Below, in pieces: positions 23,374-53,312 of a DNA stretch of 64,000 bases. A program made the position numbers and the translations under genes. The notes under the pieces are model-generated. The model saw only the letters and a program-made list of their open reading frames with translations, was not told the origin of the DNA and made no database searches. Origin of the DNA: an uncultured bacterium (lineage in GTDB: Bacteria > Desulfobacterota > Binatia > HRBIN30 > CADEER01). The first letter of the stretch is position 1. The number at the start of each line of letters is the position of its first letter. The stretch spans positions 445,783 through 509,782 of the forward strand of contig CAVWTK010000004.1 in the NCBI GenBank assembly GCA_963757755.1. The letters are read 5' to 3'.

Positions 23374-25792
23374 ACAGGAAGAACAACAGGTGAGTCCGAA
23401 GGACCGCGTCTTTGGCTTCGAAGAAGATCTCAGCAGCATCAGCGTCCCGGAGACCCTGCCGGTGCTGCCGCTGCGTGGCGTCGTCGTCTTTCCGTCGGCG
23501 ATCGTGCCGCTGCTCATCTCGCGCGGCTCGTCGTTGAAGGTCGTGGAGCAGGCGCTCGCCGGCGACCGCATGTTGGCGCTCGTCACGCAGAAACGGCCCG
23601 AGGACGAGGAGCCGAAGCCGCACGACCTCTTCGTTCGCGGCGCCGCCGGCCGCATCCTCAAGATGCTGAAGTATCCCGATGAGAGCGTCCGCATCCTGGT
23701 CCAGGGCCTGCGGCGCATCGACCTGCAGCAGATCATCCAGACCGAGCCGTTCTATACGGCTCGCGTGCGCGAGCTCAGCGACGTCCGCGAGACCACTCCC
23801 GAGCTCGAGGCCATGCAGGCGCACATGGTGAACCTGTTCGCCAAGTTCGTCTCGATGATCCCGTACCTGCCGGACGAGCTGCAGGTGGTCGCGACCAACA
23901 TCAAGGACGCCGGCAAGGTCGCCGACCTGATCGCCGCCAACCTCAACGTCTCGCTCGACGAGAAGCAGGAGCTGCTCACCCAGCTCGACGTGCGCAAGCG
24001 CCTCGAGCGCCTGACCAGCATCCTCAACCGCGAGATCGAGCTGCTCGAGCTCGGCCAGAAGATCCAGACCCAGGTCCAGGACGAGCTGACGAAGAACCAG
24101 AAGGACTTCTACCTGCGTCAGCAGATGCGGGCGATCCAGAAGGAGCTCGGCGAAGGCGACCCGCGCGACTCCGAGGTCGACGAGCTGCGCCAGAAGCTCG
24201 ACATCGCCAAGCCGCCGGAAGCGGTGCGCAAGGTGGCCGACAACGAGCTCGAGCGCCTGCGTATGATTCCGGTCGAGTCGGCGGAGCACAACGTCGTCCG
24301 CACGTACCTGGAGTGGATCTGCAACCTGCCGTGGTCGATCGGCACCGAGGACAACCTCGATATCCGCCACGCCCGCGAGGTGCTCGACGAGGACCACTAC
24401 GACCTCGAGAAGATCAAGGACCGCATCCTCGAGTTTCTCGCCGTGCGCAAGCTGAAGAACGACTCGAAGGGCCCGATCCTCTGCTTCGTCGGCCCGCCGG
24501 GCACCGGCAAGACCTCGCTCGGCCGTTCGGTGGCGCGCGCCCTGGGGCGCAAGTTCATCCGCATCTCGCTCGGCGGCATGCGCGACGAGGCCGAGATCCG
24601 GGGCCACCGCCGCACCTACATCGGCGCCCTGCCCGGCCGCATCATCCAGGGCCTGCGCACCGCCGGCTCGCACAACCCGGTGATCATCTTCGACGAGATC
24701 GACAAGCTCGGCGCCGATTTCCGCGGCGACCCGGCCTCGGCGATGCTCGAGGTCCTCGATCCGGAGCAGAACAACACATTCCAGGACCACTACCTCGACG
24801 TCCCGGTCGACCTCTCGAAGGTGCTCTTCATCACCACCGCCAACCAGCTCGATCCGATCCCCGGGCCGCTGCGCGACCGCATGGAGGTCATCGAGTTGGC
24901 CGGCTACACCGATCGCGACAAGCTGCAGATCGCCCGGCGCCACCTCATCCCGAAGCAGATCGCCGAGAACGGCATCGCCACCGAGCAGATCGTCTTCACC
25001 GACGAGGGCCTGCTGTTCCTCATCCACCACTACACCCGCGAGGCCGGGCTGCGGAACATCGAGCGCGAGATCGGCGCCATCTGCCGCAAGGTCGCGCGCG
25101 GTATCACCGAAGGCCAGACCGAGGTCGTCGTCGCCACGCCGGAAAAGGTGCGCGAGCTGCTCGGACCCGAGCGCGTCTACTCCGAAGTCGCCGAACACAA
25201 CGACGAGCCGGGCGTCGCCATCGGCCTGGTGTGGACGCCGATGGGCGGCGACATCATCTTCATCGAAGCGACGAAGATGTCCGGCAAGAAGGGCATCACC
25301 GTCACCGGCAACCTCGGCGACGTGATGAAGGAGTCCGCGCAGGCGGCGCTCAGCCACATCCGGTCGCGCGCCCCTCGCCTCGGCATCGCGGCCGACTTCT
25401 TCGAGAACATGGACATCCATATCCATGTGCCCGCCGGCGCGGTGCCGAAGGACGGTCCCTCGGCCGGTGTCACCATCGCCACCGCGCTCACGTCGCTGCT
25501 GACCGGTCGGCCGGTTCGCCACGACGTGGCAATGACCGGCGAGATCACCTTGCGCGGCAAGGTGCTGCCGGTCGGCGGCATCAAGGAGAAGGTGCTCGGC
25601 GCCCACCGCGCCGGGATGCGCACCGTGATCCTGCCCAAGCGCAACGAGAAGGACCTCGAAGAAGTGCCGCAGGAAGTCCGCGCCGCGATGCAGTTCTACT
25701 TCGTCGACACGATCGAGCAGGTGCTCGAGCACGCGCTGGAACCGATGGCCGGGGGCGCGCAGCCGCTCCGCGCCGCGCACTCTCAGTCCTGA
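23366..25792 (+). CDS. lon: ATP-dependent Lon protease (endopeptidase La)
   Basis: LON N-domain ([13 protein letters not shown]), Walker [10 protein letters not shown], and Walker [10 protein letters not shown]. The protease domain has PKDGPSAG with the catalytic Ser, and the Lys region is [14 protein letters not shown]. The frame is intact. Confidence 0.96.
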
Positions 25793-25801
25793 GCTCACGG
25801 A

Positions 25802-25833
25802 GAGGGGCGGCTGTCTCACACGTCCGCCCCCTC
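25802..25833. terminator. Hairpin between convergent lon and the Cys-rich protein gene
   Basis: GAGGGGCGG (25802-25810) pairs with CCGCCCCCTC (25824-25833) with one bulged C. The loop is 13 nt. Confidence 0.4.
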
Positions 25834-25837
25834 CGCG

Positions 25838-27424
25838 TCAGGGCAACACGCCGGACAGGTCGATCGTTCCCTTCGCCGAGACCGCGCCTGGTCCGGGGAT
25901 CCTGGCGACGAAGTCCAGCAGCGGGCCGGCCGACGGCACGCAGAACGTCCCCGCCAGCGTCATTTGAAGCGCGTCGATACCGCCGCCCGGCGCCACGCCG
26001 GTCTCGGAGATGCTGCGCACGCCAGGGATGCCGAACGCGCCCTGCACGGTCTGGCCGGGGCAGAAGAAGCCGTCGGTCGAGGTCATGGACGACGCGCCGG
26101 TGGTCAGCCCCGGCAGCACGACGCGCAGCGAGGCCAGGAACGTGTTGGTCTGCGGCGGACAGTCATTCGTCGTCCCGCCGGAACCGATCGGCGTGCAGGA
26201 CAGGCCCATGTTGTCGCCGCTGTTGCAGACACCGCTCTCGCAACGCGGACACGGCGAGTCCGCATTGCCGGTGACGTAGATCCGGCTCTCGAGCGCCGCC
26301 GCGAGCGTCGCGGTCGGCGGCACGAGTTGGACGTTGCCGCACATGTCCGTGAGGAAGGCGTTGACGATGCAGGTGGGCAGCCCCGACGCCGTCAGCGGCA
26401 CCGGCGGCCCGAAGTAGCAGTTGGCGGTCAGCGCGCAGGCGCCGGTGATGCCGTTGCAGTCGTCGTCGAACTCGCAGGTGCCGTGTCCGTCGAACCCCGG
26501 CGCGCCGTTGACGCAGCTGCGCCCCGGCCCGGCGCCCTTGCTACAATCGTTCGGCCCGGTCCCGGCGCTGCCCGCCAGCGTGACGCTCGGCGGCAGGAGA
26601 TTGAGGTTGACGACGTCGAGCTTCGACTCCGCACCGTCGGGAAGCCGCAATCCGGGGAGGAATCCGGTGTAGAGACAGCCCACACCGAGGCCGTCGATGG
26701 TCGCGGCCGCGCCGTCGGCGACCGAACCGGAGAACGGCGCCGCCGGGTCGGGATTGGCGAGGCCGGCGCCGCCGCAGTTGGCGCTCCCCATCTGAATGGT
26801 GAACGGCACCTGCGCGATCGGCGGCAGCGGCACGCCGTTGCTCTGGCAGATCGCCGGGAAGGTCGGCGTCGCCGTGACCGTGGGCGTGATGGTCGGCGTC
26901 AACGTGATGGTCGGCGTCTGGGTGATCGTCGCCGTCGGCGTGATGGTCGGCGTGTACGCCGCAGCGCAACCGCTCGCACCACAGGCGTCGCAACAGCTCG
27001 TGAAGACGCCCGTGCACACACTGCCGCCGGCGGGCGCCTTGCACTTGTCGGCGCTCGGCTTGATCCCACACTTCGTCTTGCCGCTCGAGGTCGTCCGGCA
27101 GCACGTAACGGCGCCCGGGGCGCGGCCGCAGATGGACCGCGTCGAACAGCGTTTCGCGCTCACCGCGCAGGCCACCGACAGTCCGTCGAGAAACATGGCG
27201 CGACTGATGACGTGCTTCGCGCACCGCACGTAGGCGCCGTGCGACTGCGCGGTGGCGCAATCGCACTGTTCCGCCACATCGGCGCGTACAGCCGCGAGGG
27301 CCACCGCATCACCGGGCAGATCGCCGCACTTCGACGCGCGCGCCGCGCCCGGCACCGCCGCGACGCACATCGCGAACACCGCGACTTGCCACCAGCGACC
27401 GGCCTGTACTCGCAGTCCCACCAT
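25838..27424 (-). CDS. Secreted cysteine-rich protein with TPTIT linker (function unknown)
   Basis: Start at M 27424 (MVGLRVQAGRWWQVAVFAMCVAAVPGAARA). The N-terminal Cys-rich module is CDCATAQSHGAYVRCAKHV...CGRAPGAVTCCR...KCGIK...C. This is followed by (TPTITx)n and a C-terminal region of about 330 aa with many further Cys residues (CEFDDDCNG, CPRCESGVCNSG). Confidence 0.65.
   Translation of the reverse strand: MVGLRVQAGRWWQVAVFAMCVAAVPGAARASKCGDLPGDAVALAAVRADVAEQCDCATAQSHGAYVRCAKHVISRAMFLDGLSVACAVSAKRCSTRSICGRAPGAVTCCRTTSSGKTKCGIKPSADKCKAPAGGSVCTGVFTSCCDACGASGCAAAYTPTITPTATITQTPTITLTPTITPTVTATPTFPAICQSNGVPLPPIAQVPFTIQMGSANCGGAGLANPDPAAPFSGSVADGAAATIDGLGVGCLYTGFLPGLRLPDGAESKLDVVNLNLLPPSVTLAGSAGTGPNDCSKGAGPGRSCVNGAPGFDGHGTCEFDDDCNGITGACALTANCYFGPPVPLTASGLPTCIVNAFLTDMCGNVQLVPPTATLAAALESRIYVTGNADSPCPRCESGVCNSGDNMGLSCTPIGSGGTTNDCPPQTNTFLASLRVVLPGLTTGASSMTSTDGFFCPGQTVQGAFGIPGVRSISETGVAPGGGIDALQMTLAGTFCVPSAGPLLDFVARIPGPGAVSAKGTIDLSGVLP
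26886..26957 (-). repeat. Tandem 18-nt coding repeat (TPTITx linker)
   Basis: Four units: gtgatggtcggcgtcaac, gtgatggtcggcgtctgg, gtgatcgtcgccgtcggc, gtgatggtcggcgtgtac. Confidence 0.85.
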
Positions 27425-27514
27425 TCGCGCCCCCTTCTTCGGCGGAGACGCACACGCCTCCGGCCAGCCCAAGTGTGGCCATGCCGGTCGCGGGTTCGAT
27501 AGTTCGCAGATTCT

Positions 27515-28360
27515 TTAACTCGGCGGGTACTCCTCGTGCTGCGGCAGGGCGTCGGCGATGGCAAACCAGGGCGCCCGCGAGCCGACGAAAATGTGCGAGT
27601 CGGGAATCACGGCAGGTGAATCGTCGAGCGATCCCATCGGCACGACCGCCATGCCGCGCTCGCGGTTGATCGTCGGCATCGGCGACCCGCAGGTGCGGCA
27701 GAACGTCTGCGTGAAGCGGTCCGCTTCCGGCACCTTGTAGGCGACGAGCTGGTCGGCTCCGCGCGTGAAGTGGAGGTGCTCGGCAGAGGCGAACATGTTC
27801 GCGGCGTGCGCCGCCGAGCGCGCCTTCCGACAGCGGCCGCAGTGGCAGTTGCGGGCGAGCAGCGGCGGACTGTCGATGACGTAGGCGACCGCCCCGCACA
27901 GGCAGCTGCCGCGCAGCGTCCCTTCCGCCGGCGCGCTGCGCGGCGGATCCGGCAGGACGGTCGCGTCCACGCCCGGCGGATAGGCGTCGAAGCGCGGCAG
28001 CTCGTCGGCGATCTCGTACCAGGGCGCCTTGGAGGCGACGAAGATGTGATCGCCGGGGCGCTCGCCGGGGTCGTCATCGAGGTTGCCCGCCGGCGAGAAC
28101 ACCAGGCCGCTGAACGGCGGGCCCGGCACCACCGACCCGCAGCGGTCGCAGAACGAGCGCGCGGCGCCCGGCTGCGGCGCCCAGGTGGCGACATGCTCGG
28201 CACCACGCAGGCGGTAACCCTCCTGCGGCCCGCCGAGGTACGTCGCGAAGGGCGTCCCGTGCGCCTTGCGACAGCGGCCGCAGTGACAGTGGTGCATGAA
28301 CACGAACGGTCCATCGAGCTCCCAGGTGACGGCGCCGCACAGGCAACTGGCTCGGGTCAT
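27515..28360 (-). CDS. Tandem-duplicated GFA (glutathione-dependent formaldehyde-activating / CENP-V-like) zinc-binding protein
   Basis: There are two copies of the pattern C.CG...........H.CHCG.CRKA.G......CG. Copy 1 is SCLCGAVTWEL...MHHCHCGRCRKAHG...FCDRCGS. Copy 2 is SCLCGAVAYVI...ARNCHCGRCRKARS...FCRTCGS. Confidence 0.8.
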   Translation of the reverse strand: MTRASCLCGAVTWELDGPFVFMHHCHCGRCRKAHGTPFATYLGGPQEGYRLRGAEHVATWAPQPGAARSFCDRCGSVVPGPPFSGLVFSPAGNLDDDPGERPGDHIFVASKAPWYEIADELPRFDAYPPGVDATVLPDPPRSAPAEGTLRGSCLCGAVAYVIDSPPLLARNCHCGRCRKARSAAHAANMFASAEHLHFTRGADQLVAYKVPEADRFTQTFCRTCGSPMPTINRERGMAVVPMGSLDDSPAVIPDSHIFVGSRAPWFAIADALPQHEEYPPS

Positions 28361-28506
28361 GACGATCCTCCTCGCGCCGGCACGCCTGCGGCCGACGGGC
28401 TGTCTCTATGCCGCGGCTGCCGCCGACTCCAGACGCGCGCTCGCACGTCCGTGGACGCGACCGGGCGTTGGCCACTCGCGGCGCCCGTGCTACCCGCCGG
28501 AGCGCC

Positions 28507-29298
28507 GTGCGCCGCTTCCAGCTCTTCGAATGGGAGGATCAACCCTGGTTCCCGTCGCTGCTGCGCGACTACGCCACCGACCATCTCCGCTATGCGCAGA
28601 CCGGCAGCGACATGGAGCCGGCGCACGACGCCATCGCGACACGGCTCGCCGCGGCGCTGGCGTGTCTCGGCGGTACCCGCATCGTCGATCTCTGTTCGGG
28701 CGCGAGCGGCCCCCTGCTGTCGGTGCGCCCGCTGGTCGAGGAGAAGATCGGCCGGTCGGTCGAGATCGTGCTGACCGATCTCTATCCCAACGCCAGGGCC
28801 TTGGGCGCCGTCGCGGGCGATGGCGTCCGCGGCGAGCTCGCCCCGGTGAATGCCACCGACGTACCGGCGGGGCTCACCGGCCTGCGCACCATGTTCGCGG
28901 CCCTGCATCACTTCCCGCCCGCCGCGGCGCGAGCGGTGCTCGCCGACGCGGTGCGCCAACGGTCCGGCATCGCGGTGTTCGAGCCGTTGGAGCGCACGGC
29001 GCGCATGATCGCCCTCGTGGCGCTCAGCGGCGTCATCCGCGGCCTCCTGGTGACGCCGGTGATCGGCAACCTCTCCGTGGCGCGACTCCTGGCCACCTAC
29101 GTGGTGCCCGTCGGGCCCCTGCTGCTCACCTGGGACGGCGTCGTGTCGGCCCTGCGGACCTATTCGGTCGACGAGCTCCGCGACCTCACCCGCAGCCTCG
29201 GGGACGTCGGATATGATTGGGAGATCGACCGATTTCCCCTCGCCACGGCGGTGGGCGACGTCCACTGGACCTCCCTGATCGGCCTGCCGAGACACTGA
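28507..29298 (+). CDS. Putative class I SAM-dependent methyltransferase-like protein
   Basis: GTG at 28507. FEWEDQPWFP...RIVDLCSGASGP (a glycine-rich SAM-loop-like motif) ...VLTDLYPN. The assignment rests on motif resemblance only. Confidence 0.45.
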   Translation: MRRFQLFEWEDQPWFPSLLRDYATDHLRYAQTGSDMEPAHDAIATRLAAALACLGGTRIVDLCSGASGPLLSVRPLVEEKIGRSVEIVLTDLYPNARALGAVAGDGVRGELAPVNATDVPAGLTGLRTMFAALHHFPPAAARAVLADAVRQRSGIAVFEPLERTARMIALVALSGVIRGLLVTPVIGNLSVARLLATYVVPVGPLLLTWDGVVSALRTYSVDELRDLTRSLGDVGYDWEIDRFPLATAVGDVHWTSLIGLPRH

Positions 29299-29339
29299 GG
29301 GCAATCGTCGGACGAGCTGTTCCGGGAGACACTTTCGGT

Positions 29340-29431
29340 CCCCGAAAGGCGCTGCTCCCGCAGCGCCTGGCAGGTGGGTCGATCGAGTCCGCGGTGAGCG
29401 GCCGCGCGGGAGCGCGGCCCTCCATTCGGGG
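29340..29431 (+). repeat. Structured dispersed repeat, copy 1 (two 8-bp hairpins plus closing stem)
   Basis: GGCGCTGC-TCCC-GCAGCGCC (29348-29367) ... GGCCGCGC-GGGA-GCGCGGCC (29400-29419), flanked by CCCCGAA / TTCGGGG. It is homologous to 34586-34685. Confidence 0.65.
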
Positions 29432-29594
29432 CCTGGAGGCACCCGTTGCCCTTGAAAAGGGGTGTGAAATCTCCTCACCAGCCGATGACGGTATTCTTGA
29501 CTCGCGACAAGTTCCGAATAGGGTGTAGAGTTCACTGCGTCGCAGCGCGCTCCTGCGCCGACGAGGAGCGCCAAGATGCGCGCAAGGAGGCAGG

Positions 29595-29942
29595 ATGGCC
29601 TTGACACTGGATGAGGCGAGAAATGTGTTGTGGACGCTGGTTCGGACCATCGACCGCAAAGCCGACCTCGTCGTCACCGCCCAGACGGGCGGCGAGGCTG
29701 GCGTCACCGCCGTCGTCACCCTGCGCAAGCACAAGGCGACCCTCGTCATCCCCGCAAAGGAGATCGAGGCCGCTCAGGAGTCGACGATCAATCGCTCCAA
29801 CTTGCGCACCACCATCAAGCGCGCCATCGACCGCGCGAGCTTCATTCCGCCGCCGATGGCCAGCACCAAGGTGAACCGCGGCCCTGAGATCGACGGCGGC
29901 TTCTTCCGCAACAATTCCGGACCGCGCTCGCCCCGCCGCTGA
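29595..29942 (+). CDS. Hypothetical small protein (115 aa)
   Basis: A strong SD AAGGAGG (29584-29590) lies 4 nt upstream of the ATG. Codon usage resembles the neighbouring genes. I recognised no family. Confidence 0.55.
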   Translation: MALTLDEARNVLWTLVRTIDRKADLVVTAQTGGEAGVTAVVTLRKHKATLVIPAKEIEAAQESTINRSNLRTTIKRAIDRASFIPPPMASTKVNRGPEIDGGFFRNNSGPRSPRR

Positions 29943-30088
29943 ACGGCAACGGGGTCGGGCCGCAAGCATATCCCCGCGCCCCCAGACAGACGTGTGACAC
30001 CCCCGAGGCCCCGCTACGGCAGGGTCACGGGGTACTGACGGGGCCCGACCGAGTGGTCAGGATCCTCGTCACCGACACGACGCCCGCA

Positions 30089-31378
30089 TCACTCGCCCTG
30101 CCCGCGGCGGGTGTCGCCCGAGAAGAACCCGCGCTTCTTGCGGGGCGGCGCTGCCGCTGAGGCCGGCGTGTCCTCGACCACCGGCGTCGGCAGCGGCGCC
30201 GCGTCGGGCGCCAGGTATTGCTTGTAGAGCTCGCCGGCCACGGCCTTGAGCCCCTCTTCCGCCTTCGCGCCACCGATGTTGGTCATCAACACCATGGCCG
30301 AGTCGTGGGCCGTATCGATCCAGATCTGGGCGACGTTCAGGCCGTTCGACCCGCCGTGGTAGAGGAGCGGCTGCGCCGCCCACTCGACGGTCAACCGGCC
30401 CCATCCCAATGCGTACTCACCGCCCGGCGGCGTGCCCGGCTTGGCGTCCACCGGGACGGGCATGCTGATCACCGGGGTGTGCAGCTTGCGCATCGTCTCC
30501 GGCGACACCAGCGCCGGCGCGTGCGCGCCCTCGCCGGCGTTCCACGCCGCCCAGCGGGCGAAGTCCACGACCGACATGTGCGCGATCCCGGCCGGCCCGA
30601 TGACCGGCGGATTGTCGCCGTTGGGCCCCGCCAGCATCGCCTTCGGGGTGCCGCTCCCCGGCGCGTGGCCGAGCGGCGCGTCGATGCGGCCGATCGACGC
30701 CTGATTGCCGAGACCGGCCGTCCGCAGATGCAGCGGCGTGAAGACCTTCTCGACGATCAGCTCGTCCCACGTGCGGCCGGTGACGCGCTCCATCATCGCG
30801 CCGGCCAGCACGTAGTTCATGTTGGCGTAGGCGAACGTCGTCCCTGGCGTCGACACCAACTTCTGCGGGCACCACTCCCGCACCAGCCAGTACCGGAGCT
30901 CGTCGAGATTCCCCTCCTGGGTCTGCGACCGCTCGAGCGCACTCGTGAACGCCTGATCGTCGCTCGGCACGCCGCTCGTGTGGGAGAGGAGCTGCGTGAG
31001 CGTCACCTTGGCCAGGCCGGGATCCATGCGGCCGGCGAGCTCCGGAAAGACCTCGCCGACAGTCGAGTTCCACCGTAGCTTCCCCTGCTCCACCAGGATC
31101 GCGGCGAGGAGTGCCGTCATCGCCTTGGTATCCGAGCCGAGGTGAAAGCGGTCGTCGAGCGTCACCGGCGCGTTCACCCCGAACCGACGCGTACCCACCG
31201 CACCGGCCGCGACCACCTGCCCGCCGCTGGCGACAGCGGCGGCCAGCGCCGGCAGGCCGTAGGTCGCGAGGTACGGCTGCAAGGTCGCATCGAGCGAGGC
31301 GGGCGCCGCGTGCGCCGCGGTGCTGCTCACGATCGCCGCTACGAGAATTCCGAGACACCTGCGACTGTTGCCCATCAT
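30089..31378 (-). CDS. Secreted beta-lactamase-family serine hydrolase
   Basis: ATG-ATG at 31378 gives the signal peptide MMGNSRRCLGILVAAIVSSTAAHA. The SxxK motif is in HLGSDTKAMT, and YANMNY (YxN-like) is present. The long N-terminal extension of the track ORF is rejected. Confidence 0.8.
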   Translation of the reverse strand: MMGNSRRCLGILVAAIVSSTAAHAAPASLDATLQPYLATYGLPALAAAVASGGQVVAAGAVGTRRFGVNAPVTLDDRFHLGSDTKAMTALLAAILVEQGKLRWNSTVGEVFPELAGRMDPGLAKVTLTQLLSHTSGVPSDDQAFTSALERSQTQEGNLDELRYWLVREWCPQKLVSTPGTTFAYANMNYVLAGAMMERVTGRTWDELIVEKVFTPLHLRTAGLGNQASIGRIDAPLGHAPGSGTPKAMLAGPNGDNPPVIGPAGIAHMSVVDFARWAAWNAGEGAHAPALVSPETMRKLHTPVISMPVPVDAKPGTPPGGEYALGWGRLTVEWAAQPLLYHGGSNGLNVAQIWIDTAHDSAMVLMTNIGGAKAEEGLKAVAGELYKQYLAPDAAPLPTPVVEDTPASAAAPPRKKRGFFSGDTRRGQGE

Positions 31379-31477
31379 CTCACTCCCCGCGTGCGCTGCG
31401 TTGCGCTCCTGGCTTATGGCAAATGGCGGGTGGCCGGAAGCCATGCGGCAACGGCGCCAGCCAAGCGAGGAGCAGGT

Positions 31478-32092
31478 ATGTCGCTGAAGATGGTCGTGTT
31501 CTACGGGTCGGTACGGTCGCAGCGCCAGGGGATCAAGGCCGTGCGCTTCGTGATGAACAAGTGTCGCGAGCGCGGCCACGAGGCGGTCTTGATCGACCCG
31601 CAGGAGTTCGCGCTTCCGCTGATCGACAAGATGTACAAGGAGTACGCGCCGGGCCAGGCGCCGCCGCTGCTGCAACGCATGGCCGACCTCGTGATTCCGG
31701 CCGACGCGTACATCGTCGTCTCCGGCGAGTACAACCACAGCGTTCCGCCCGCGCTCGCCAACCTGCTCGATCACTTCCTCGAGGAGTACTTTCGCAAGCC
31801 CTCGGCGATCGTGTCGTATTCGGCCGGCAGTTTCGGCGGCGTCCGCGCCGCGGTCGTGCTGCGCTCGATGCTCGCCGAGATGGGGATGTCGAGCATTCCC
31901 TCGACGTTGCCGATCCCCACCGTGCAGAACGCCTTCGACGACGCCGGCGCACCGACCGATCCGCGTTTCCACAAACGCGCCGACCGCTTCTTCGACGAGC
32001 TCGAGTGGTACGCCACCGCGCTGCAGGCCGCCCGTGGCCGTGCCTGCGCGCGCAGCGAGTCGGATACCGCCGAGCTCGTCCTGAAGAAATAG
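31478..32092 (+). CDS. NAD(P)H-dependent FMN reductase family oxidoreductase
   Basis: ATG at 31478. MSLKMVVFYGSVRSQRQG...VVSGEYNHSVPPALANLLDH is typical of the flavodoxin-like FMN reductase fold. Confidence 0.8.
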   Translation: MSLKMVVFYGSVRSQRQGIKAVRFVMNKCRERGHEAVLIDPQEFALPLIDKMYKEYAPGQAPPLLQRMADLVIPADAYIVVSGEYNHSVPPALANLLDHFLEEYFRKPSAIVSYSAGSFGGVRAAVVLRSMLAEMGMSSIPSTLPIPTVQNAFDDAGAPTDPRFHKRADRFFDELEWYATALQAARGRACARSESDTAELVLKK

Positions 32093-32217
32093 CCGCCTCG
32101 TTTGACTGTCACGGTCACGGCGACGTACGCCTCGCACAGGCCATCTGGTTGCGGCGACGGCGGGAAGTCGCTCCTGGGGGGCGTCGGGTCGGACGCTGCG
32201 GGAAAGGATCGCGTCCG

Positions 32218-33390
32218 GTGTCGAAGCAATCGATCCGCGTCTGCCTGGTCGTCCTCAGCGCACTCGTCGCCGCGTGTGGGGATTCGTCCTCGTCGTCCAG
32301 CTCGGCGGGGAACGACGACGTCGTCTTCAGCCCCGAGGGCAACAACCTCTGGGCCTACGAAACGACGCCGCCTTTCGTCTCGCAGAAGGTGAACGCCGCG
32401 AACCACACCTTCGACGGGACCCCGGGCAATCCGGATGCCTGGGACATCAACGGTGAGATCTGCCACTTCACCAAGGGCGGCAAGCGCTATCTGGTCAGCG
32501 GCGAGGACACGCACCAGCCCGACCCGCCCGCCGGATGGGGCATCTTCGAGCTGACCGGCGACGGCGTCGGCGACTTCGCGCTCAAGACGCGCGTGGCGCG
32601 CCTCGTCCCGACCTACCAGGACACGCCCGACGGTCCCGACAACTACGGCTGCGCCGTGCTCTCGGACGGACGCATCCTCACCACCGACATCGGCAACAAC
32701 GCGGGCGGCGCCGCCAACGGCCAGCTCATCCTGTGGTTCCCGCCGTTCACCGGCGAGGAGATCTCGTTCTGCAAGCTCGACCTGCACCTCGCCACTGGCC
32801 AGGGCATCTACGTCGACAAGCACGACAATCTGTATCTGAACTCGCCGCGTACGGCGGTGGAGCCGGACGCCACCTCCGCCGGCATCTTCAAGTACAGCCC
32901 GCCCTACCCGACCTCCGCCGACGCCCGCGGCGGCTGCGGCCGAATCGACAACCTCGGCTCGCCGCTCGCCGATGCGATCCACAAAGAGCGCGTGCTCGCC
33001 GCGCCGGACCACGGGTTGGCGACGCCCTCGGGCATCACCGGCGGCAGGAACGGACACTTCTACGTCGCCAGCGTGCTCAGCGGCCTCATCAACGAATACG
33101 ACAAGGACTGGCAGTACGTGCAGACCGTGCTGCGCCCGCCGGCGGGCGACCGCATCAGCATGACGAAGACCTACACGACCGGCACGCCGCTCGGCGTCAC
33201 CGTCGGCGATGACGGGACTCTCTACTACGCCGACATCGGCATCATCATCCGGCCGACCGGCCCGGGACCGGGCGACCATCTCGGCTCGCTGCGGCGCATC
33301 ACATTCAACGACGACGGCACGCCGAACCCGCCGGAGACGATCGCCGACAACCTGCAGTTCCCCGACGGTCTCGGGGTGTGGAAGCCGTAG
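32218..33390 (+). CDS. Lipoprotein, possible beta-propeller fold (function unknown)
   Basis: GTG at 32218. The lipobox is LSALVAAC followed by GDSSSSSSS. The repeated GxxYxxD/NxLYxxx-type strands are only suggestive of a propeller. Confidence 0.6.
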   Translation: MSKQSIRVCLVVLSALVAACGDSSSSSSSAGNDDVVFSPEGNNLWAYETTPPFVSQKVNAANHTFDGTPGNPDAWDINGEICHFTKGGKRYLVSGEDTHQPDPPAGWGIFELTGDGVGDFALKTRVARLVPTYQDTPDGPDNYGCAVLSDGRILTTDIGNNAGGAANGQLILWFPPFTGEEISFCKLDLHLATGQGIYVDKHDNLYLNSPRTAVEPDATSAGIFKYSPPYPTSADARGGCGRIDNLGSPLADAIHKERVLAAPDHGLATPSGITGGRNGHFYVASVLSGLINEYDKDWQYVQTVLRPPAGDRISMTKTYTTGTPLGVTVGDDGTLYYADIGIIIRPTGPGPGDHLGSLRRITFNDDGTPNPPETIADNLQFPDGLGVWKP

Positions 33391-33481
33391 AAGGAACGGC
33401 GGAGATGAGACGGCCCACCGTCGAGCCTGAAACTCCCTGCCCGCGCAGCCAACAGCCTCACCACTGACCCCTGTCCCTCCC

Positions 33482-34546
33482 ATGCCGCGCGGGGTCATCG
33501 TCTGGGGTACCGGCAACGTCGGCGTGCCGGCGCTGCGCATCGTCCTGGCCAATCCGGCGCTGCGCCTCGCGGGCGTGATCGTCTCGAATCCCGCCAAGGT
33601 CGGCAGGGACGCCGGCGAGCTGTGCGGCCTACCGCCAACCGGCGTGCGCGCAACCGATGACGTCGACGGCGCCTTCGCCGCGGGTGCCGATGCGGTCGCC
33701 TACTGCGCCTCGGGCGACTTCCGGCCGACCGAGGCGATCGACGACATCGAGCGCTGCCTGCGCGCCGGGCTCAACGTCGTCTCGACGTCCATCTACCCGC
33801 TCTACGATCCCCTTCCGCTCCCGACGACCTGCGCGAGCGCATCGGCGCCGCCTGCACGGCGGGCAACGCATCGATCTTCGTCTCCGGCGTCGATCCCGGC
33901 TTCATCAACGACATCATCCCGCTGCTGCTCAGCGGGCTGTGCGAGCGGGTCGACGAGATCCGGGCATTCGAGCTCTTCAACTACGCGACCTACGCCCAGC
34001 CCGACGCGGTGCGGAACCTGGTCGGCCTGGGCCAGCCGATGGACGCCACGCCGCCGATGCTGACACCCGGCGTCCCGACGATGGTCTGGGGCGGCCCGAT
34101 CCGCCTGATGGCGCGCGGCCTCGGTCTCACCCTCGACGAGATCCGCGAGTCCGTCGTGAAGCGCCCGCTCGCGCGTACCGTCACCAACCAGCTCGGCCAG
34201 TTCGACGCCGGCACGATGGGCGCCTTCCGCCTCGAGATCCAGGGCATCGTCGGCGGCAAGCCGCTGCTGGTCGTCGACCACGTCACCCGCATCGTCAACG
34301 ACATCGCCCCCGAATGGCCGAAGCCGAAGGGCGACGGGGCCCACGGCGTCGCCATCACCGGCCGCCCGAACCTCACCGTGACGTTCGATCCCGAGGACGA
34401 CGACCGGCAGCGCCGCCGGCGGCGGCAACACCACCGCCGCGGCCCGCATCGTCAACGCCATCCCGTTCGTCTGCGCCGCGCCTCCGGGCATGCTCGACGC
34501 GCTGCAGGTACCGCTGCCGATCGGCCGCGGCCTGGTGCGGCCGTAG
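33482..34546 (+). pseudogene. DapB-like NAD(P)-binding dehydrogenase (dihydrodipicolinate reductase N-domain / amine dehydrogenase family), frame broken twice
   Basis: The Rossmann N-terminus is VIVWGTGNVGVPALRIVL. The sequence continues in a second frame from about 33820 (FVSGVDPGFINDIIPLLLSG...) and in a third frame from about 34400 (...RIVNAIPFVCAAPPGMLDALQVP). Stop at 34544-34546. Confidence 0.6.
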
Positions 34547-34585
34547 AGCGTCCTGACTCCGTGTGCACCCCACGCCTCCAAGCCT

Positions 34586-34685
34586 GATTGGAGGGCGCCG
34601 CTCCCGCGGCGCCTGGCAGCGGGGTCGGGTTTGCGATGTACCATCCGGGACAGGCCGCGCGGGAGCGCGGCCCTCCAATCGGGGG
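34586..34685 (+). repeat. Structured dispersed repeat, copy 2
   Basis: GATTGGAGGG (34586-34595) pairs with CCCTCCAATC (34671-34680). Internal hairpins are GGCGCCGC-TCCC-GCGGCGCC (34594-34613) and GGCCGCGC-GGGA-GCGCGGCC (34653-34672). Confidence 0.65.
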
Positions 34686-34782
34686 TTGATAACGCGTCGA
34701 GGTGCTTGACCGCGCCGCGTGGCAGCGCCTATCGGTCGCGCGCGATCCGCGCACGGCAGCGCCGCGGCGAGAGGAGATCCGT

Positions 34783-35574
34783 ATGGCACGCAAGGGCGAA
34801 GGGCAGACCGCGCTCGTGACCGGCGCGAGCATGGGCATCGGCGTCGATCTGGCCGAGTGCTTCGCGCAGGATGGCTACGACCTGATCCTCACCGCGCGCT
34901 CCGCGGACGCGCTGCAGGAGGTCGCGACGCGGCTGGCCGCGGCACACGGCGTGACGGCCACGCCGATCACCGGCGATCTCGGCGTGCCGGGCGGCGGCGC
35001 CACCCTGGCGGCGACCATCGCGGCGCGCGGGCTGGCCGTCGACGTGCTGGTGAACAACGCCGGCTACGGCATCGCCGGCGCGTTCAACGGCTCGGATCGC
35101 GCCAATCAGCTGGGGATGATCGACCTGAACGACCGCGCGCTCGTCGAGCTGACCCACATCTACTGGCCGCGCATGCTGGCGACTCGCACGGGCGGCGTAC
35201 TCAACGTCGCCTCCACCGCGTCGTTCCAGCCGGGACCGCTGATGGCCATCTACTACGCATCCAAGGCCTTCGTCCTGTCGTTCTCCGAGGCGCTGTGGAA
35301 GGAGGCCGAAGGCACGGGCGTGCACGTCAGTTGCCTGTGCCCCGGCCCGACGGTGAGCCAGTTCCGCGAGCGCGCCGGCACCGGCAAGACCCGCCTGGCG
35401 CGCAACACGCCGATGAGCTCGGCAGAGGTGGCGAAGTTGGGCTACGCCGGCTGGCAGGCCAACCGGCGCGTGGTCATCACCGGCGCGCGCAACGCCATCC
35501 TCGCACGGCTGGTGCCCTTTCTGCCGCGCCGCACCCTCCTCGGCATCGTCCACAACCTGCAGAGCCCGACGTAG
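34783..35574 (+). CDS. Short-chain dehydrogenase/reductase (SDR) family oxidoreductase
   Basis: ATG at 34783. TALVTGASMGIG (TGxxxGIG), NNAG, and the catalytic YYASK. Confidence 0.88.
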   Translation: MARKGEGQTALVTGASMGIGVDLAECFAQDGYDLILTARSADALQEVATRLAAAHGVTATPITGDLGVPGGGATLAATIAARGLAVDVLVNNAGYGIAGAFNGSDRANQLGMIDLNDRALVELTHIYWPRMLATRTGGVLNVASTASFQPGPLMAIYYASKAFVLSFSEALWKEAEGTGVHVSCLCPGPTVSQFRERAGTGKTRLARNTPMSSAEVAKLGYAGWQANRRVVITGARNAILARLVPFLPRRTLLGIVHNLQSPT

Positions 35575-35698
35575 CCGCGACGCCGCCGCCGATTTGCGGC
35601 GGGCCCCGCGGACTGCTGCAGTGGGGCCCGTGACTCCACTCGGCGCCGCACGGGTACGGGGCATCTCAGGTCGCTCTTCGCGGCCCGCCCGCCGGTGG

Positions 35699-37573
35699 AT
35701 GCTCGCCCTCGCATTGCTGCTGGTCGCCGTCGACAGCCGACCCGCACTCGCGTTCAGCCTGCACCTGCCCTTCCACCTGCACCTCCCCTTTCACATCCGG
35801 CGCTGGCTGCGCCGCAACCAGTGGACCGAGTTCAAGGAGCACGGACCGCGCGCCAAGCCGACGGCGGAGGACAAACACAGCGGCGTGATCGTCTTCACCC
35901 GCGATCCGCTGTTGCGCATCTATGCGAACTCGCGGCCGCAGGCGCCCGAGCTGGCCAGCAAGCTCACTCTGGTCGCCGCCCGCGATCAATACGAGCCCGT
36001 CCAGATCGGCGTCTACGCCGTGCACGACCTGACCGGCGTCACCGTCACCGCCTCCGACCTGCGCGACGATGCCGGCGAGACCATCCCCGCCGCCGACAGC
36101 AGCGTGCGCATGGTGCGCTTCTACGGCGCCCCCCTCTCCAATCGTCACCGCGACCGCTTCGGCGTCGTGCCGAAGACCCTCGAAGTGGCGGTGCCGCTCG
36201 CCGTCGCCAAAGACACGGTGCGCCCGTATTGGATCACCGTCCACGTCCCGCCCGACCAGCCCGCCGGCGTCTATCGCGGCACGGTGCGGATCGCTCACGC
36301 CAAGGGCAGCCGCGAGATCCCCGTGTCGGTGGATGTGCTGCCGATCCGGCTCCACGAGCCCGACATCCTCTACGGCACGTTGTCGATCAACCCCTTGGCC
36401 AAGATCAGCGAGGTGCTCGCCCATCCGCACACGGTGCTGCCCGGCAAGACGCTCGAGGAGAACATCCACATCGCCGGCGCCGACCCGCTACTCGAACAGG
36501 CCGAGGTGATGCTGCGCGATCAGCGGGCGCACGGCATGAACACCATCAGCCCGTGGTCATCGAAGGAGTACACGCTGCGCGCCAATGAGCCCTACCTGCG
36601 CGACGTCGAGGTCGCGATCCTCCTCTACCGGCGCATCGGCTTCACCAAGCCGATGCTCTACCAGATGGGCACGCTGCTCCACACCAACAAGAACAACCGT
36701 GCCGCCTCCTACCGCACCTTCAACCGCACCCGCGACCTCGGCGTCGCCCGCGACGTCGCCCGCTACTACACCGCACGGTTCGCCGACGAAGGCCTGCCCG
36801 GCATCATCTTCCTCCCGATCGAGGAGCCGAACCTGCGCGACGGCATCTCCTGGCTCGACCCGCCCGAGTCGCGCCAGACCATCGCGCGCGCCGTGCTCGG
36901 CGCCATCCGCGACGCGGGCGGCCGCACCGGCGTGACCTGCACGCCGGATTCGGCGAAGGCCGTCGGCGACCTGGCCGACTACTGGATCGTCGCCTTCCGC
37001 AGTTACACGCCGGACGTACTGGAAGCCGCCGCGCGCGACGGATCGCACGCCGCCATCTACGCCAACTTCGCCATGATGGGTCAGAACACCTACGCGCCGC
37101 GGTTTCTGTTCGGCTATTTCGTCTGGGCGAACGGGCTGACCGGTATGCTGCCGTGGACCTACCCGGCACAGCCGAACCGCTTTCCGGTCAACGTCGACGA
37201 CCGCGGCGAGGGCGGGCTCAACGTGCACGACGGCTTCCTCGGCATCGACGGCACGCCGATCCCGACCATCCAGTGGGAGCTCAGTCGCGTCGGCATCGAC
37301 GACGCCAAGTACCTCACCACCATCGCGGACCTCGCGGCGACCGCCGGCGAGTCCGACTCGGCTGCGGCGCGCACCGCCGCCGCCGACGCGCGCGCCTTCC
37401 TCGACGACGTCCGCGGCCAGGTCAGCCCCAGTCTCGCGCGCTACACTTTCGAGCACGGCAAGGGCAGCGACCCGAAGCCCGAGGGCGGCTGGGACGTCGC
37501 CCGCTTCGAGGCGACGCGGGCCCGCGCCGTCGACCTCCTGCGCCGCCTGCTCGCCACCACCGGCGCGCAGTGA
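35699..37573 (+). CDS. Large secreted protein of unknown function (possibly glycoside-hydrolase-like)
   Basis: ATG at 35699 gives the signal peptide MLALALLLVAVDSRPALA, followed by FSLHLPFHLHLPFH. The frame is intact for 624 aa. It loosely resembles DUF4091/GH123-like proteins, and I cannot verify this. Confidence 0.5.
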   Translation: MLALALLLVAVDSRPALAFSLHLPFHLHLPFHIRRWLRRNQWTEFKEHGPRAKPTAEDKHSGVIVFTRDPLLRIYANSRPQAPELASKLTLVAARDQYEPVQIGVYAVHDLTGVTVTASDLRDDAGETIPAADSSVRMVRFYGAPLSNRHRDRFGVVPKTLEVAVPLAVAKDTVRPYWITVHVPPDQPAGVYRGTVRIAHAKGSREIPVSVDVLPIRLHEPDILYGTLSINPLAKISEVLAHPHTVLPGKTLEENIHIAGADPLLEQAEVMLRDQRAHGMNTISPWSSKEYTLRANEPYLRDVEVAILLYRRIGFTKPMLYQMGTLLHTNKNNRAASYRTFNRTRDLGVARDVARYYTARFADEGLPGIIFLPIEEPNLRDGISWLDPPESRQTIARAVLGAIRDAGGRTGVTCTPDSAKAVGDLADYWIVAFRSYTPDVLEAAARDGSHAAIYANFAMMGQNTYAPRFLFGYFVWANGLTGMLPWTYPAQPNRFPVNVDDRGEGGLNVHDGFLGIDGTPIPTIQWELSRVGIDDAKYLTTIADLAATAGESDSAAARTAAADARAFLDDVRGQVSPSLARYTFEHGKGSDPKPEGGWDVARFEATRARAVDLLRRLLATTGAQ

Positions 37574-53264: not shown

Positions 53265-53280
53265 TCCGGGCCCGGCAATC

Positions 53281-53308
53281 GGCGGGCGCCGCTCCGGCGG
53301 CGCCCGCC
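53281..53308. terminator. Perfect 12-bp GC hairpin between convergent genes
   Basis: GGCGGGCGCCGC (53281-53292), loop TCCG, GCGGCGCCCGCC (53297-53308). Confidence 0.45.
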
Positions 53309-53312
53309 AAGC

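What the first reader, a model, noticed from the sequence alone, without database searches (positions are those of the whole stretch)
29340..34685. Two-copy ~95-nt structured element with a compensatory base-pair substitution
Copy 1 (29340-29431) and copy 2 (34586-34685) share the following:
- Hairpin 1: GGCGC[T/C]GC-TCCC-GC[A/G]GCGCC.
- CTGGCAG, followed by a variable spacer.
- Hairpin 2: GGCCGCGC-GGGA-GCGCGGCC.
- CCTCCA[T/A]TCGGGG.
- A closing stem formed by the flanks: CCCCGAA/TTCGGGG in copy 1 and GATTGGAGGG/CCCTCCAATC in copy 2.

The only difference inside hairpin 1 is a paired change, T:A in copy 1 and C:G in copy 2, which preserves the stem. This kind of covariation indicates selection on the structure in RNA or ssDNA. 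Both copies lie just downstream of a + strand gene stop (29298 and 34546) and upstream of the next + strand gene. The element could be a small structured RNA, a terminator-type REP, or a MITE-like element with terminal inverted repeats.
Basis: seen in the sequence. Interest (0 to 1): 0.6.

Follow-up and report, generated by a model that had tools for sequence, protein, structure and literature searches.

The report
REPIN repeats with their RAYT transposase
The two look-alike hairpin elements are ordinary members of a family of more than 200 small palindromic "REP" repeats (REPINs), which elsewhere in the same genome flank a domesticated-type transposase gene (RAYT), so they are a known kind of bacterial repeat and not a new structured RNA.

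Summary
The described sequence features are all present at 29340-29431 and 34583-34686. The element is not a two-copy element. An iterated nhmmer search finds 236 loci in the 7.2-Mb genome, 112 of them near full length, and a pattern census finds 332 REP units.

Each unit is a GGAG head followed directly by an 8-bp G+C stem and a TCCC loop. Two units in inverted orientation, heads outside, with a spacer of 0-86 nt, make the roughly 100-nt element. This is the REPIN/BIME design.

A 152-aa REP-associated tyrosine transposase gene lies on another contig (C9:2465810-2466268). It scores 90 bits on NCBIfam NF047646 (cut-off 80). It is flanked on both sides by inverted doublets of exactly these REPs. 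The same arrangement surrounds its orthologues in a congener and in three Lysobacterales-type MAGs.

There are no target-site duplications, no Rfam match and no U-tract. The copies avoid genes and show no firm orientation bias relative to the neighbouring genes.

Across genomes six compensated stem variants exist.

Verdict: a new member of a known kind. Its one departure is a GGAG head in place of the canonical GT(A/G)G. Mobilisation by the RAYT is inferred, not shown. Interest is low.

The parts
29340..29431 (+). REPIN copy 1, a decayed heterodimer. Left outer arm CCCCGAAA (29340-29347). A'-type REP hairpin GGCGCTGC-TCCC-GCAGCGCC (29348-29367), whose GGAG head is deleted. 32-nt spacer (29368-29399). 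Inverted B-type REP GGCCGCGC-GGGA-GCGCGGCC-CTCC (29400-29423). Right outer arm ATTCGGGG (29424-29431).
   Evidence: The nhmmer hit is 29345-29431, E = 1.4e-10. Only the right-hand unit passes the strict test of GGAG plus hairpin.
34583..34686 (+). REPIN copy 2, an intact A-B heterodimer. Outer arm CCTGATT. GGAG head (34590-34593). A-type hairpin GGCGCCGC-TCCC-GCGGCGCC (34594-34613). 39-nt spacer of the 'TGGCAGCGxGGTCGGGTTTGCGATG...' subfamily (34614-34652). Inverted B-type REP GGCCGCGC-GGGA-GCGCGGCC (34653-34672). CTCC (34673-34676). Outer arm AATCGGGGG.
   Evidence: It is 91-96% identical to copies on contigs C9 and C1.
28408..29298 (+). Upstream gene of copy 1. It encodes a 296-aa hypothetical protein with no Pfam match. 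Its stop codon lies 41 nt before the element. Gene and REPIN together are absent from the syntenic site of the same-genus genome G001.
33482..34546 (+). Upstream gene of copy 2, a DapB_N-like NAD-binding oxidoreductase. In this assembly its frame is broken twice. Its stop codon lies 36 nt before the element. Synteny with G001 ends at this stop codon.
34783..35574 (+). Downstream gene of copy 2, a short-chain dehydrogenase (adh_short, 136 bits).
29595..29942 (+). Downstream gene of copy 1, encoding a 115-aa hypothetical protein. The stretch 29493-29560 ahead of it, which contains a TTGACT...TAGGGT promoter-like motif, is conserved in G001. The REPIN lies upstream of that stretch, outside it.
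53278..53309 (.). Possible degenerate relative: a lone hairpin GGCGGGCGCCG-CTCCGG-CGGCGCCCGCC between two convergent genes. Its core resembles the A-type REP stem, but it has no GGAG head. It is not counted as a member.
   Evidence: (family D19).

Best explanation
Both elements are REPINs. A REPIN is an inverted doublet of repetitive extragenic palindromic (REP) units. This family has several hundred copies in the genome. The family is the non-autonomous partner of a single-copy REP-associated tyrosine transposase (RAYT), a Y1 HUH enzyme encoded at G000:C9:2465810-2466268.

Unit and doublet. Each REP unit is 5'-GGAG + 8-bp G+C stem + TCCC loop + stem'. There are three stem alleles: GGCCGCGC (B), GGCGCCGC (A) and GGCGCTGC (A'). 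Two units face each other with their heads outside, mostly as A-B heterodimers. They are joined by a spacer of one of a few length classes (0-1, 11, 26-41, 55-67, 72-86 nt). A further 10-12 nt of inverted repeat lies outside each head (consensus CAATCACCGAAT / ATTCGGTGATTG).

Inferred mechanism, by analogy with E. coli TnpA-REP and IS200/IS605. On single-stranded DNA the RAYT binds a folded REP together with its 5' tetranucleotide. It cleaves at or near the inverted partner and in the linker, and then transfers strands. This copies, excises or amplifies doublets, without target-site duplication. Copies persist where they do little harm, which is mainly just downstream of gene 3' ends.

What is shown here: family size, architecture, compensated stems, extragenic bias, the RAYT flanked by the same REPs, and the conservation of that arrangement in other genomes.

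What is inferred: that this RAYT moves these elements, and any host effect of the two window copies. Such an effect could be protection of the mRNA 3' end or attenuation for genes 28408-29298 and 33482-34546.
For: Copy number:
- 63 BLAST hits and 94 nhmmer hits rising to 444, which reduce to 236 non-overlapping loci, 112 of them near full length.
- 332 GGAG-headed units carrying the three stem alleles.

Doublet design:
- 99 neighbouring pairs have heads outside, 15 have heads inside and 5 are tandem. Of 82 doublets, 78 are heads-outside. Arrays reach 10 units.
- 53 of 85 anchored doublets are A/A'-B heterodimers.

Cognate RAYT:
- The ORF at L070:2811-3269 scores 90.1 bits on NF047646 'REP-associated tyrosine transposase' (cut-off 80) and 25.2 bits on Pfam Y1_Tnp (cut-off 23).
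- Its only PDB hit is 4ER8, E. coli TnpA-REP (E = 6e-8). The alignment covers the HUH motif, the WQ..W motif and Y-x3-NPVRHG.
- The gene is flanked upstream by two copies of GTTGGAGGGCGCCGCTCCGCGGCGCC|GGCCGCGCGGAAGCGCGGCCCTCCAGC and downstream by the exact reverse complement.

Conservation of the arrangement:
- Orthologous RAYTs (49-66% identity) in G001, a Pseudomarimonas MAG, a Lysobacterales MAG and Bin_66_1 are all flanked on both sides by GGAG-GGCCGCGC-TCCC REPs.
- A 40%-identical paralogue carries a different, GTAG-headed REP.

Covariation:
- The stem alleles are fully compensated, with almost no intermediates.
- On 32 copies, 92.7% of cells are paired against 88.5% in shuffles (0 of 500 shuffles reach the observed value). 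There are 35 double-change cells against 12.3 expected (0 of 500).
- The two arms co-vary at position -7/+7.
- Across genomes the middle of the stem varies (CGCG, GCCG, GCTG, GTCG, CGGG, TCGG) and is always compensated.

Placement:
- 13-17% of copies overlap my conservative gene calls, which cover 63% of the genome. The flanks are mostly gene 3' ends.

Literature:
- All of these traits are described for REP/REPIN/BIME systems: compensatory changes in the hairpin, tandem clusters that include flanking DNA, heterodimers and conserved spacers (PMC3116915, PMC3733652, PMC2817692, PMC3333891).
Against: - The head tetranucleotide is GGAG. The published definition of REPs requires GT(A/G)G (PMC3686654), and none of the four REP papers I searched mentions GGAG.
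- No direct evidence of movement.
- The dispersed copies have spacers of about 26-86 nt, whereas the RAYT-flanking doublets have none. The flanking copies are therefore not identical in form to the dispersed ones.
- The assembly carries indel errors. Single-base indels seen in individual copies are therefore unreliable.
- My gene calls are crude.
Confidence: 0.9

Rival explanations
1. The element is a structured RNA, either a small RNA gene or a cis-regulatory 5'/3' UTR element, and the hairpins are kept by selection at the RNA level.
For: The folds are stable. Compensatory changes exist. Both window copies lie between same-strand genes.
Against: There is no Rfam match even at E = 10. There are hundreds of copies. 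The element is a palindrome that folds equally well on either strand. Heterodimers have either arm next to the adjacent gene's 3' end: 9 with the A arm proximal and 20 with the B arm proximal, and array copies are not independent. Most copies sit after gene ends, not before starts. Copy 1 lies upstream of, not inside, the promoter-proximal stretch that is conserved in G001. The cognate RAYT explains the hairpin constraint without invoking RNA.
Confidence: 0.03
2. The element is a classical MITE, an internally deleted DDE-type insertion sequence that is moved in trans through its terminal inverted repeats.
For: The element has long terminal inverted repeats (about 36-45 nt per arm), a size of about 100-140 nt, a high copy number and an intergenic location.
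Against: No target-site duplication of 3-6 bp appears at any boundary offset above shuffled expectation. Each arm is itself a REP hairpin with a conserved 5' tetranucleotide. Singlets and head-inside pairs also exist. The only gene bracketed by these sequences is a Y1 RAYT.
Confidence: 0.02
3. In addition to being REPINs, the two window copies have been co-opted by the host as 3'-end elements. In this role they would act as Rho-independent-like attenuators or as barriers to 3'-5' exonucleases that stabilise the upstream mRNAs. This does not exclude the main explanation.
For: The copies begin 36-41 nt after stop codons. Genome-wide, the flanks are mostly gene 3' ends. From my own recall of the E. 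coli and Salmonella literature, REPs there are known to stabilise upstream mRNA and to bind IHF, gyrase and Pol I; I did not check this here.
Against: No U-tract follows the hairpins, and the terminator scan finds nothing. The copies are not conserved at the syntenic sites of the congener G001. The location bias is equally well explained by purifying selection against insertions elsewhere.
Confidence: 0.2

Closest known systems
REPINs and RAYTs of Pseudomonas fluorescens SBW25 (Bertels & Rainey 2011, PMC3116915)
   Same: Both are inverted REP doublets with a spacer that fold into one long hairpin. Both have hundreds of extragenic copies. In both, doublets are over-represented, compensatory changes occur in the hairpin, and there are tandem clusters that repeat the REPIN together with flanking DNA. 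Both have a cognate RAYT that is flanked by the same REPs and is the only RAYT gene bearing them.
   Different: The head here is GGAG, not GTGG or GTAG, and the palindrome abuts the head directly. The doublets here are mostly heterodimers of two stem alleles. There are several discrete spacer length classes, including spacer-less doublets next to the RAYT.
E. coli REP/BIME and TnpA-REP (REPtron; Ton-Hoang 2012, PMC3333891; structure 4ER8, PMC3479197)
   Same: The enzyme is a Y1 HUH enzyme of the same family (phmmer E = 6e-8 to 4ER8). The gene is bracketed by REP/iREP pairs. The doublets are built from two REP variants, like the y/z pairs of E. coli. There are tandem arrays with variable copy number.
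   Different: E. coli REPs are imperfect palindromes whose stem mismatch is required for binding, and their head is GTAG. Here the stems are perfect 8-bp G+C helices, the head is GGAG, and the loop carries CTCC, the complement of the head.
REPs of Stenotrophomonas and Xanthomonas (Nunvar 2010/2013, PMC2817692, PMC3686654) and the GTAG-tagged REP super-family (Di Nocera 2013, PMC3733652)
   Same: [quoted passage not shown] The repeats occur as head-to-head ('HH') dimers with conserved spacers and as heterodimers, and clusters include flanking DNA. REP and RAYT co-evolve, and several REP-RAYT pairs occur in one genome.
   Different: The tag differs at its second base (GGAG against GTAG/GTGG). 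The host does not look like a gammaproteobacterium.

Membership tests
REP (repetitive extragenic palindrome) | High copy number (typically more than 100 per genome) | tested here: met
   There are 332 strict units and 236 nhmmer loci in a 7.2-Mb, possibly incomplete assembly.
REP (repetitive extragenic palindrome) | A short palindrome of 20-40 nt able to form a stem-loop | tested here: met
   Each unit is 24 nt: GGAG, an 8-bp stem and a 4-nt loop. Stem cells are 98-99% paired across 32 copies.
REP (repetitive extragenic palindrome) | A conserved 5' tetranucleotide GT(A/G)G next to the palindrome (Nunvar 2010/2013) | tested here: not met
   A conserved 5' tetranucleotide is present at the right position, but it is GGAG (195 + 118 + 19 units). 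It differs from GTAG at one base. GGAG is also the head in all the orthologous systems where I detected flanking REPs. I treat this as a variant of the feature, not its absence.
REP (repetitive extragenic palindrome) | Almost exclusively extragenic | tested here: met
   13-17% of copies overlap my conservative GC3-based gene calls, which cover 63% of the genome. Some of these overlaps are artefacts of the crude caller.
REP-RAYT system (REPtron) | A RAYT gene flanked by at least two REPs of the family in inverted orientation | tested here: met
   In L070, doublets lie at 2455-2505 and 2673-2723 upstream and at 3279-3330 downstream, and the downstream one is the reverse complement of the upstream ones. 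The same holds in G001, G042, G045 and G041.
RAYT protein | HUH motif, catalytic Tyr, the NP(L/V)(R/K)xG motif next to the Tyr, and a conserved N-terminal Thr (Nunvar 2010), plus a curated family score | tested here: met
   The sequence contains HVH, Y-VRH-NPVRHG and FVTV. NF047646 scores 90.1 bits against a cut-off of 80. The only PDB hit is 4ER8.
REPIN | Two REPs in inverted orientation plus a spacer, forming one hairpin; doublets over-represented | tested here: met
   99 neighbouring pairs are heads-outside, 15 heads-inside and 5 tandem. The whole-element fold of copy 2 is -73 kcal/mol, z = -4.8. The two arms co-vary. 122 strict singlets remain, and many of them have a decayed partner, as window copy 1 does.
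REPIN | Evidence of mobility (excision intermediates, insertion polymorphism) | tested here: inconclusive
   Near-identical copies (91-96%) lie on different contigs. Neither window copy is present at the syntenic site of G001, but in both cases the neighbouring DNA differs too, so there is no clean empty site.
MITE (DDE-type) | Target-site duplication flanking the terminal inverted repeats | tested here: not met
   No direct repeat of 3-6 bp appears at any pair of boundary offsets above the shuffled expectation.
Any Rfam RNA family | A covariance-model match at or near the gathering score | tested here: not met
   In 28000-36000 the only match that overlaps either element is SorY, at 17.7 bits against a gathering score of 111.
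Intrinsic terminator | A G+C-rich hairpin followed by a T/U run | tested here: not met
   The scan finds no terminator-like site around either copy.

The most novel reading that the evidence does not exclude
The most novel reading that my evidence does not exclude has two parts.

First, this could be a distinct 'GGAG-tagged' REP-RAYT lineage. Its RAYT would read a different head tetranucleotide. Its hairpin loop always carries CTCC, the complement of the head. That loop could act as an internal partner or cleavage site for the 5' GGAG, in the manner of the guide and cleavage-site pairing of IS608.

Second, the lineage may have moved horizontally between distant bacterial lineages. Essentially the same REP core (GGAG-GGCCGCGC-TCCC) and RAYT orthologues of 49-55% identity occur in this delta-like lineage and in a small clade of Lysobacterales. 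The same REP 25-mer, inside doublets, also occurs in Opitutaceae and Planctomycetota MAGs. REPIN-RAYT systems are generally held to be inherited vertically.
Probability: 0.12. Interest if true: 0.4.

Novelty: new member of a known kind. Interest (0 to 1): 0.2.

Why it matters
For annotation, this settles what about 240 intergenic hairpin loci in this genome are. It also prevents them from being reported repeatedly as candidate small RNAs, riboswitches or terminators.

For REP biology it adds a well-populated REPIN-RAYT pair from an uncultured, 70% G+C lineage. The family has a one-base variant of the canonical head (GGAG), perfect stems and two stem alleles used as heterodimers. The natural series of compensated stem variants across genomes could serve to study how RAYTs read their substrates. 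If the cross-lineage sharing of the same REP core reflects transfer, it bears on the claim that REPIN-RAYT systems are strictly vertical. None of this is surprising to a specialist.

Tried and rejected
1. Rfam scan at E <= 10 over 28000-36000. It returned only noise.
2. Sigma-54 promoter reading of CTGGCAG-N. By eye, the -12 GC is absent in both copies, so I dropped it.
3. First look for a RAYT near nhmmer-defined copies. It found none within 13 kb, because nhmmer misses the spacer-less doublets. Direct reading of the flanks found them.
4. Target-site duplication search. Negative.
5. Empty-site test in the same-genus genome G001. It was not clean. Copy 1 is missing together with a 1-kb gene-bearing segment, and at copy 2 synteny ends at the stop codon.
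6. Orientation test of heterodimers against adjacent genes and against GC skew. It gave no firm bias, 9 against 20.
8. Taxonomy. I first took the host for Lysobacterales, because the REP 25-mer hits Lysobacterales MAGs. I rejected this after comparing RpoB: 71/62% identity to those MAGs against 88/75% to a same-order genome. The 16S gene also carries the DELTA495a probe target, and the genome holds no GAM42a target.
9. Earlier-findings look-up by sequence. It returned nothing.
Full report
OBSERVATION

Both copies are present as described. Copy 1 spans 29340-29431 and copy 2 spans about 34583-34686. Each has:
- a first hairpin GGCG[T/C]CGC... precisely GGCGC[T/C]GC-TCCC-GC[A/G]GCGCC;
- TGGCAG;
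- a variable spacer;
- a second hairpin GGCCGCGC-GGGA-GCGCGGCC;
- CTCCA[T/A]TCGGGG;
- complementary outer flanks.

The paired T:A versus C:G difference is real. Folded as RNA, copy 2 forms one long hairpin of -73 kcal/mol (z = -4.8). The opposite strand folds just as well (z = -6.0). Copy 1 lacks the TGGAG that precedes the first hairpin in copy 2 and in the family consensus, so it is a decayed copy.

NOT A TWO-COPY ELEMENT

The window lies on contig C4 of a 7.2-Mb, 70% G+C assembly.
- BLAST with copy 2 gives 63 hits.
- nhmmer gives 94 hits and, iterated to convergence, 444 hits on both strands. These reduce to 236 non-overlapping loci, of which 112 are near full length.
- The consensus is ACCGAATGGAGGGCCGCGCTCCCGCG(G/C)GGCCTG ... 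CAGGCCGCGCGGGAGCGCGGCCCTCCATTCGGT.

An independent pattern census looked for GGAG followed by an 8-bp stem with at most one mismatch and a loop of 2-6 nt. It finds 332 units with stems GGCCGCGC (B), GGCGCCGC (A) or GGCGCTGC (A'). It also finds several other GGAG- or GTAG-headed families.

Units are organised mainly as inverted pairs with the heads outside:
- 99 neighbouring pairs are heads-outside, 15 heads-inside and 5 tandem.
- 82 clusters are doublets, and 78 of these are heads-outside.
- Arrays reach 10 units.
- Spacers fall into classes of 0-1, 11, 26-41 (mode 37), 55-67 and 72-86 nt.

Most anchored doublets are heterodimers: 53 of 85 have A or A' on one side and B on the other.

Some loci are tandem arrays in which the doublet plus 60-120 nt of flank is repeated:
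- C9:1283396-1284283, four copies, period 252;
- C7:1142205-1143200, five copies, period about 223;
- C9:1185816-1186298, three copies, period 190;
- C1:287957-288409, three copies, period 162.

THE COGNATE TRANSPOSASE

The genome holds six Y1_Tnp-like ORFs. One is an IS200-type transposase. The other five have RAYT-like motifs, and I scored two of those five against NCBIfam.

The ORF at C9:2465810-2466268 (L070:2811-3269, GTG start, 152 aa) has these properties:
- It scores 90.1 bits on NCBIfam NF047646 'REP-associated tyrosine transposase' (cut-off 80) and 25.2 bits on Pfam Y1_Tnp.
- Its only match among solved structures is 4ER8, E. coli TnpA-REP (E = 6e-8). The alignment covers the HUH motif, the WQ..W motif and Y-x3-NPVRHG.
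- It carries the RAYT-specific NP(L/V)(R/K)xG motif and the N-terminal Thr named by Nunvar et al. (PMC2817692).

Its flanks are this very REP family. Upstream lie two copies of GTTGGAGGGCGCCGCTCCGCGGCGCC|GGCCGCGCGGAAGCGCGGCCCTCCAGC. The second of these belongs to a 218-bp tandem duplication that also repeats the end of the upstream gene. Downstream lies the exact reverse complement. My first proximity test missed this, because nhmmer does not detect spacer-less doublets.

The arrangement is conserved. RAYT orthologues of 49-66% identity are bracketed by GGAG-GGCCGCGC-TCCC units, with partners such as GGCGCCGC, GGCGTCGC or GGTCGCGC. This holds in:
- the same-genus genome G001;
- a Pseudomarimonas MAG;
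- a Lysobacterales MAG;
- 'Proteobacteria bacterium Bin_66_1'.

A 40%-identical paralogue in Bin_66_1 is flanked by a different, GTAG-headed REP. More distant orthologues in the host's own order carry GGAG-GGCCGGG-CTCCGT, GGAG-GGCTCGG-CTCCGT or GGAG-GGCGCCG-CTCCGT. The other RAYT-like genes of this genome carry other REPs on their flanks. This is the REP-RAYT co-evolution described in the literature (PMC2817692, PMC3686654).

COVARIATION

In 279 nhmmer-defined units, stem positions 4 and 5 are C:G/G:C in about 220 and G:C/C:G in about 54. Only a handful are non-Watson-Crick.

I aligned 32 distinct copies of about 105 nt and tested the three-helix structure (outer stem, hairpin 1, hairpin 2):
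- 92.7% of cells are paired, against 88.5% in shuffles (0 of 500 shuffles reach this).
- 35 cells show a change on both sides, against 12.3 expected (0 of 500).
- Versions with the 3' partners slid by 1-3 columns give 35-51% pairing.

The outer arms pair for 10-12 nt beyond the head and co-vary at -7/+7 (A:T 29, C:G 14).

These copies are paralogues with subfamily structure, so the number of independent events is small. The cross-genome series of compensated stem middles (CGCG, GCCG, GCTG, GTCG, CGGG, TCGG) is better evidence that a hairpin is selected. Bertels and Rainey reported the same behaviour for REPINs (PMC3116915).

WHAT IT IS NOT

- No Rfam family matches.
- There is no T-run terminator and no sigma-70 consensus at either copy.
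- No target-site duplication appears at any boundary offset.
- Copies avoid genes: 13-17% overlap my conservative GC3-based gene calls, which cover 63% of the genome. Their flanks are mostly gene 3' ends.
- Heterodimers have either arm next to the adjacent gene's 3' end: 9 with the A arm proximal against 20 with the B arm proximal, and array members are not independent. Both window copies are of the minority orientation.

CONTEXT OF THE TWO COPIES

Copy 1 follows a 296-aa hypothetical gene (stop at 29298). It precedes a stretch (29493-29560) that is conserved in G001 and contains a TTGACT...TAGGGT motif ahead of a 115-aa gene. In G001 the whole 1-kb segment, gene plus REPIN, is absent.

Copy 2 follows a DapB_N-like oxidoreductase gene (stop at 34546) and precedes an SDR gene. 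Synteny with G001 ends exactly at the stop codon, and G001 has no REP there.

The copies are therefore not conserved between congeners. I could not obtain a clean empty site.

MECHANISM

Shown here: the architecture, the population, the compensated hairpins, the extragenic bias, and the RAYT bracketed by the same REPs in five genomes.

Inferred from E. coli TnpA-REP and IS200/IS605 (PMC3333891, PMC3479197): the RAYT binds the folded REP plus its 5' tetranucleotide on single-stranded DNA. It cleaves at the inverted partner and in the linker, and then transfers strands. This would explain the doublets, the variable linkers, the tandem amplification with flanks and the absence of target duplications.

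A secondary host role of the two copies as mRNA 3'-end elements is possible but untested.

COMPARISON AND NOVELTY

This is a REPIN/BIME-type family with its RAYT, which is a known kind. Three departures are worth recording:
1. The head is GGAG and not GT(A/G)G. The word GGAG does not occur in the four REP papers I searched.
2. The loop always contains CTCC, the complement of the head, even where its first C is unpaired.
3. The host is probably not a gammaproteobacterium, yet the same REP core and RAYT orthologues occur in a few Lysobacterales-type MAGs. The RAYT orthogroup was found in 6 of 301 genomes sampled from that order and in 8 of 401 genomes sampled from the host's class, all 8 in its own order. 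The B-arm 25-mer, inside doublets, also occurs on contigs of an Opitutaceae MAG and a Planctomycetota MAG. This may reflect horizontal transfer, convergence under RAYT constraint, or mis-binning. I could not decide among these.

LIMITS

- The assembly has indel errors. rpoB and the DapB_N-like gene are both frame-split.
- My gene calls are crude.
- No reads or transcriptomes could be examined.
- The taxon inference rests partly on probe sequences recalled from memory.

Noticed in passing
window 33482-34546; G000:C7:702937-704630: The DapB_N-like gene upstream of copy 2 leaves its reading frame after about residue 115 and returns to it near the end. The rpoB domain-6 region is also split over two frames. 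Together with 68% estimated completeness in only 9 contigs, this points to uncorrected indel errors, as in a long-read assembly, and not to pseudogenes.
   Followed up: partly
G000:C7:651602-652200, C9:1347290-1347835, C2:183512-184000, C9:2091742-2092242, C4:738599-739054: The genome has four further RAYT-like genes, each with its own flanking palindromes. Examples are GTAG-CGGCGGGC... at the C2 gene and GCGGGCGAG(A/C)CGCCCGC on both sides of the C7 gene. There is also one IS200-type gene, followed by an array of TCGCCCTGAAAGGGCGA hairpins spaced about 85 nt apart. The genome therefore holds several REP-RAYT systems.
   Followed up: partly
G000:C9:1346840-1347290 (downstream of the RAYT-like gene at 1347290-1347835): A tandem duplication of about 306 nt repeats the last ~40 codons of the RAYT-like gene together with its downstream CTAC-tagged hairpins.
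   Followed up: no
G000:C9:1283396-1284283; C7:1142205-1143200; C9:1185816-1186298; C1:287957-288409; L070:2330-2723: These are higher-order tandem arrays in which a REPIN plus 60-120 nt of unique flank is repeated 2-5 times (periods 162-252 nt). One of them lies directly upstream of the RAYT and repeats the 3' end of the neighbouring gene.
   Followed up: partly
window 25778-27521 and 28455-29493, against G001:C2 (L079): Two segments of about 1.7 kb and 1.0 kb are present in the window and absent from the syntenic region of the same-genus genome. G001 in turn has about 4.2 kb inserted between the matches to window 33374 and 33480. That insert includes the homologue of window 38819-39659.
   Followed up: partly
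L048, L049, L055, L062, L064 (Opitutaceae MAG VE3); L056 (Planctomycetota MAG): The exact 25-mer of the B arm occurs on five contigs of an Opitutaceae MAG and on one contig of a Planctomycetota MAG. On four of the five Opitutaceae contigs and on the Planctomycetota contig a GGAG-headed partner hairpin with a different stem (for example GGCGGTGC or GGCGGCGC) lies 60-90 nt upstream, so these are REPIN-like doublets. No RAYT orthologue was found in those two genomes at E <= 1e-10.
   Followed up: partly
all REPs of the RAYT orthogroup (window 34590-34613; L080, L082-L084, L091, L092): The apical loop always contains CTCC, the complement of the GGAG head. The middle four base pairs of the stem vary freely with compensation. 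The stem base GGC/GCC is invariant.
   Followed up: partly
spacers of many ~105-nt copies, e.g. G000:C9:1181557-1181659 and C1:770370-770472: The middle of the spacer often reads CGGTGATTGC(C/G)A. This repeats the outer right-hand flank of the element (TTCGGTGATTG). It suggests that spacers arose by recombination involving element ends.
   Followed up: no
G000:C9 ~415400-416900 (- strand): The 16S rRNA gene carries the target of probe DELTA495a. The genome has no exact target of the 23S probes GAM42a or BET42a. I recalled the probe sequences from memory. This fits an earlier agent's guess of a delta-like lineage (Binatia) better than my first assumption of Lysobacterales.
   Followed up: partly
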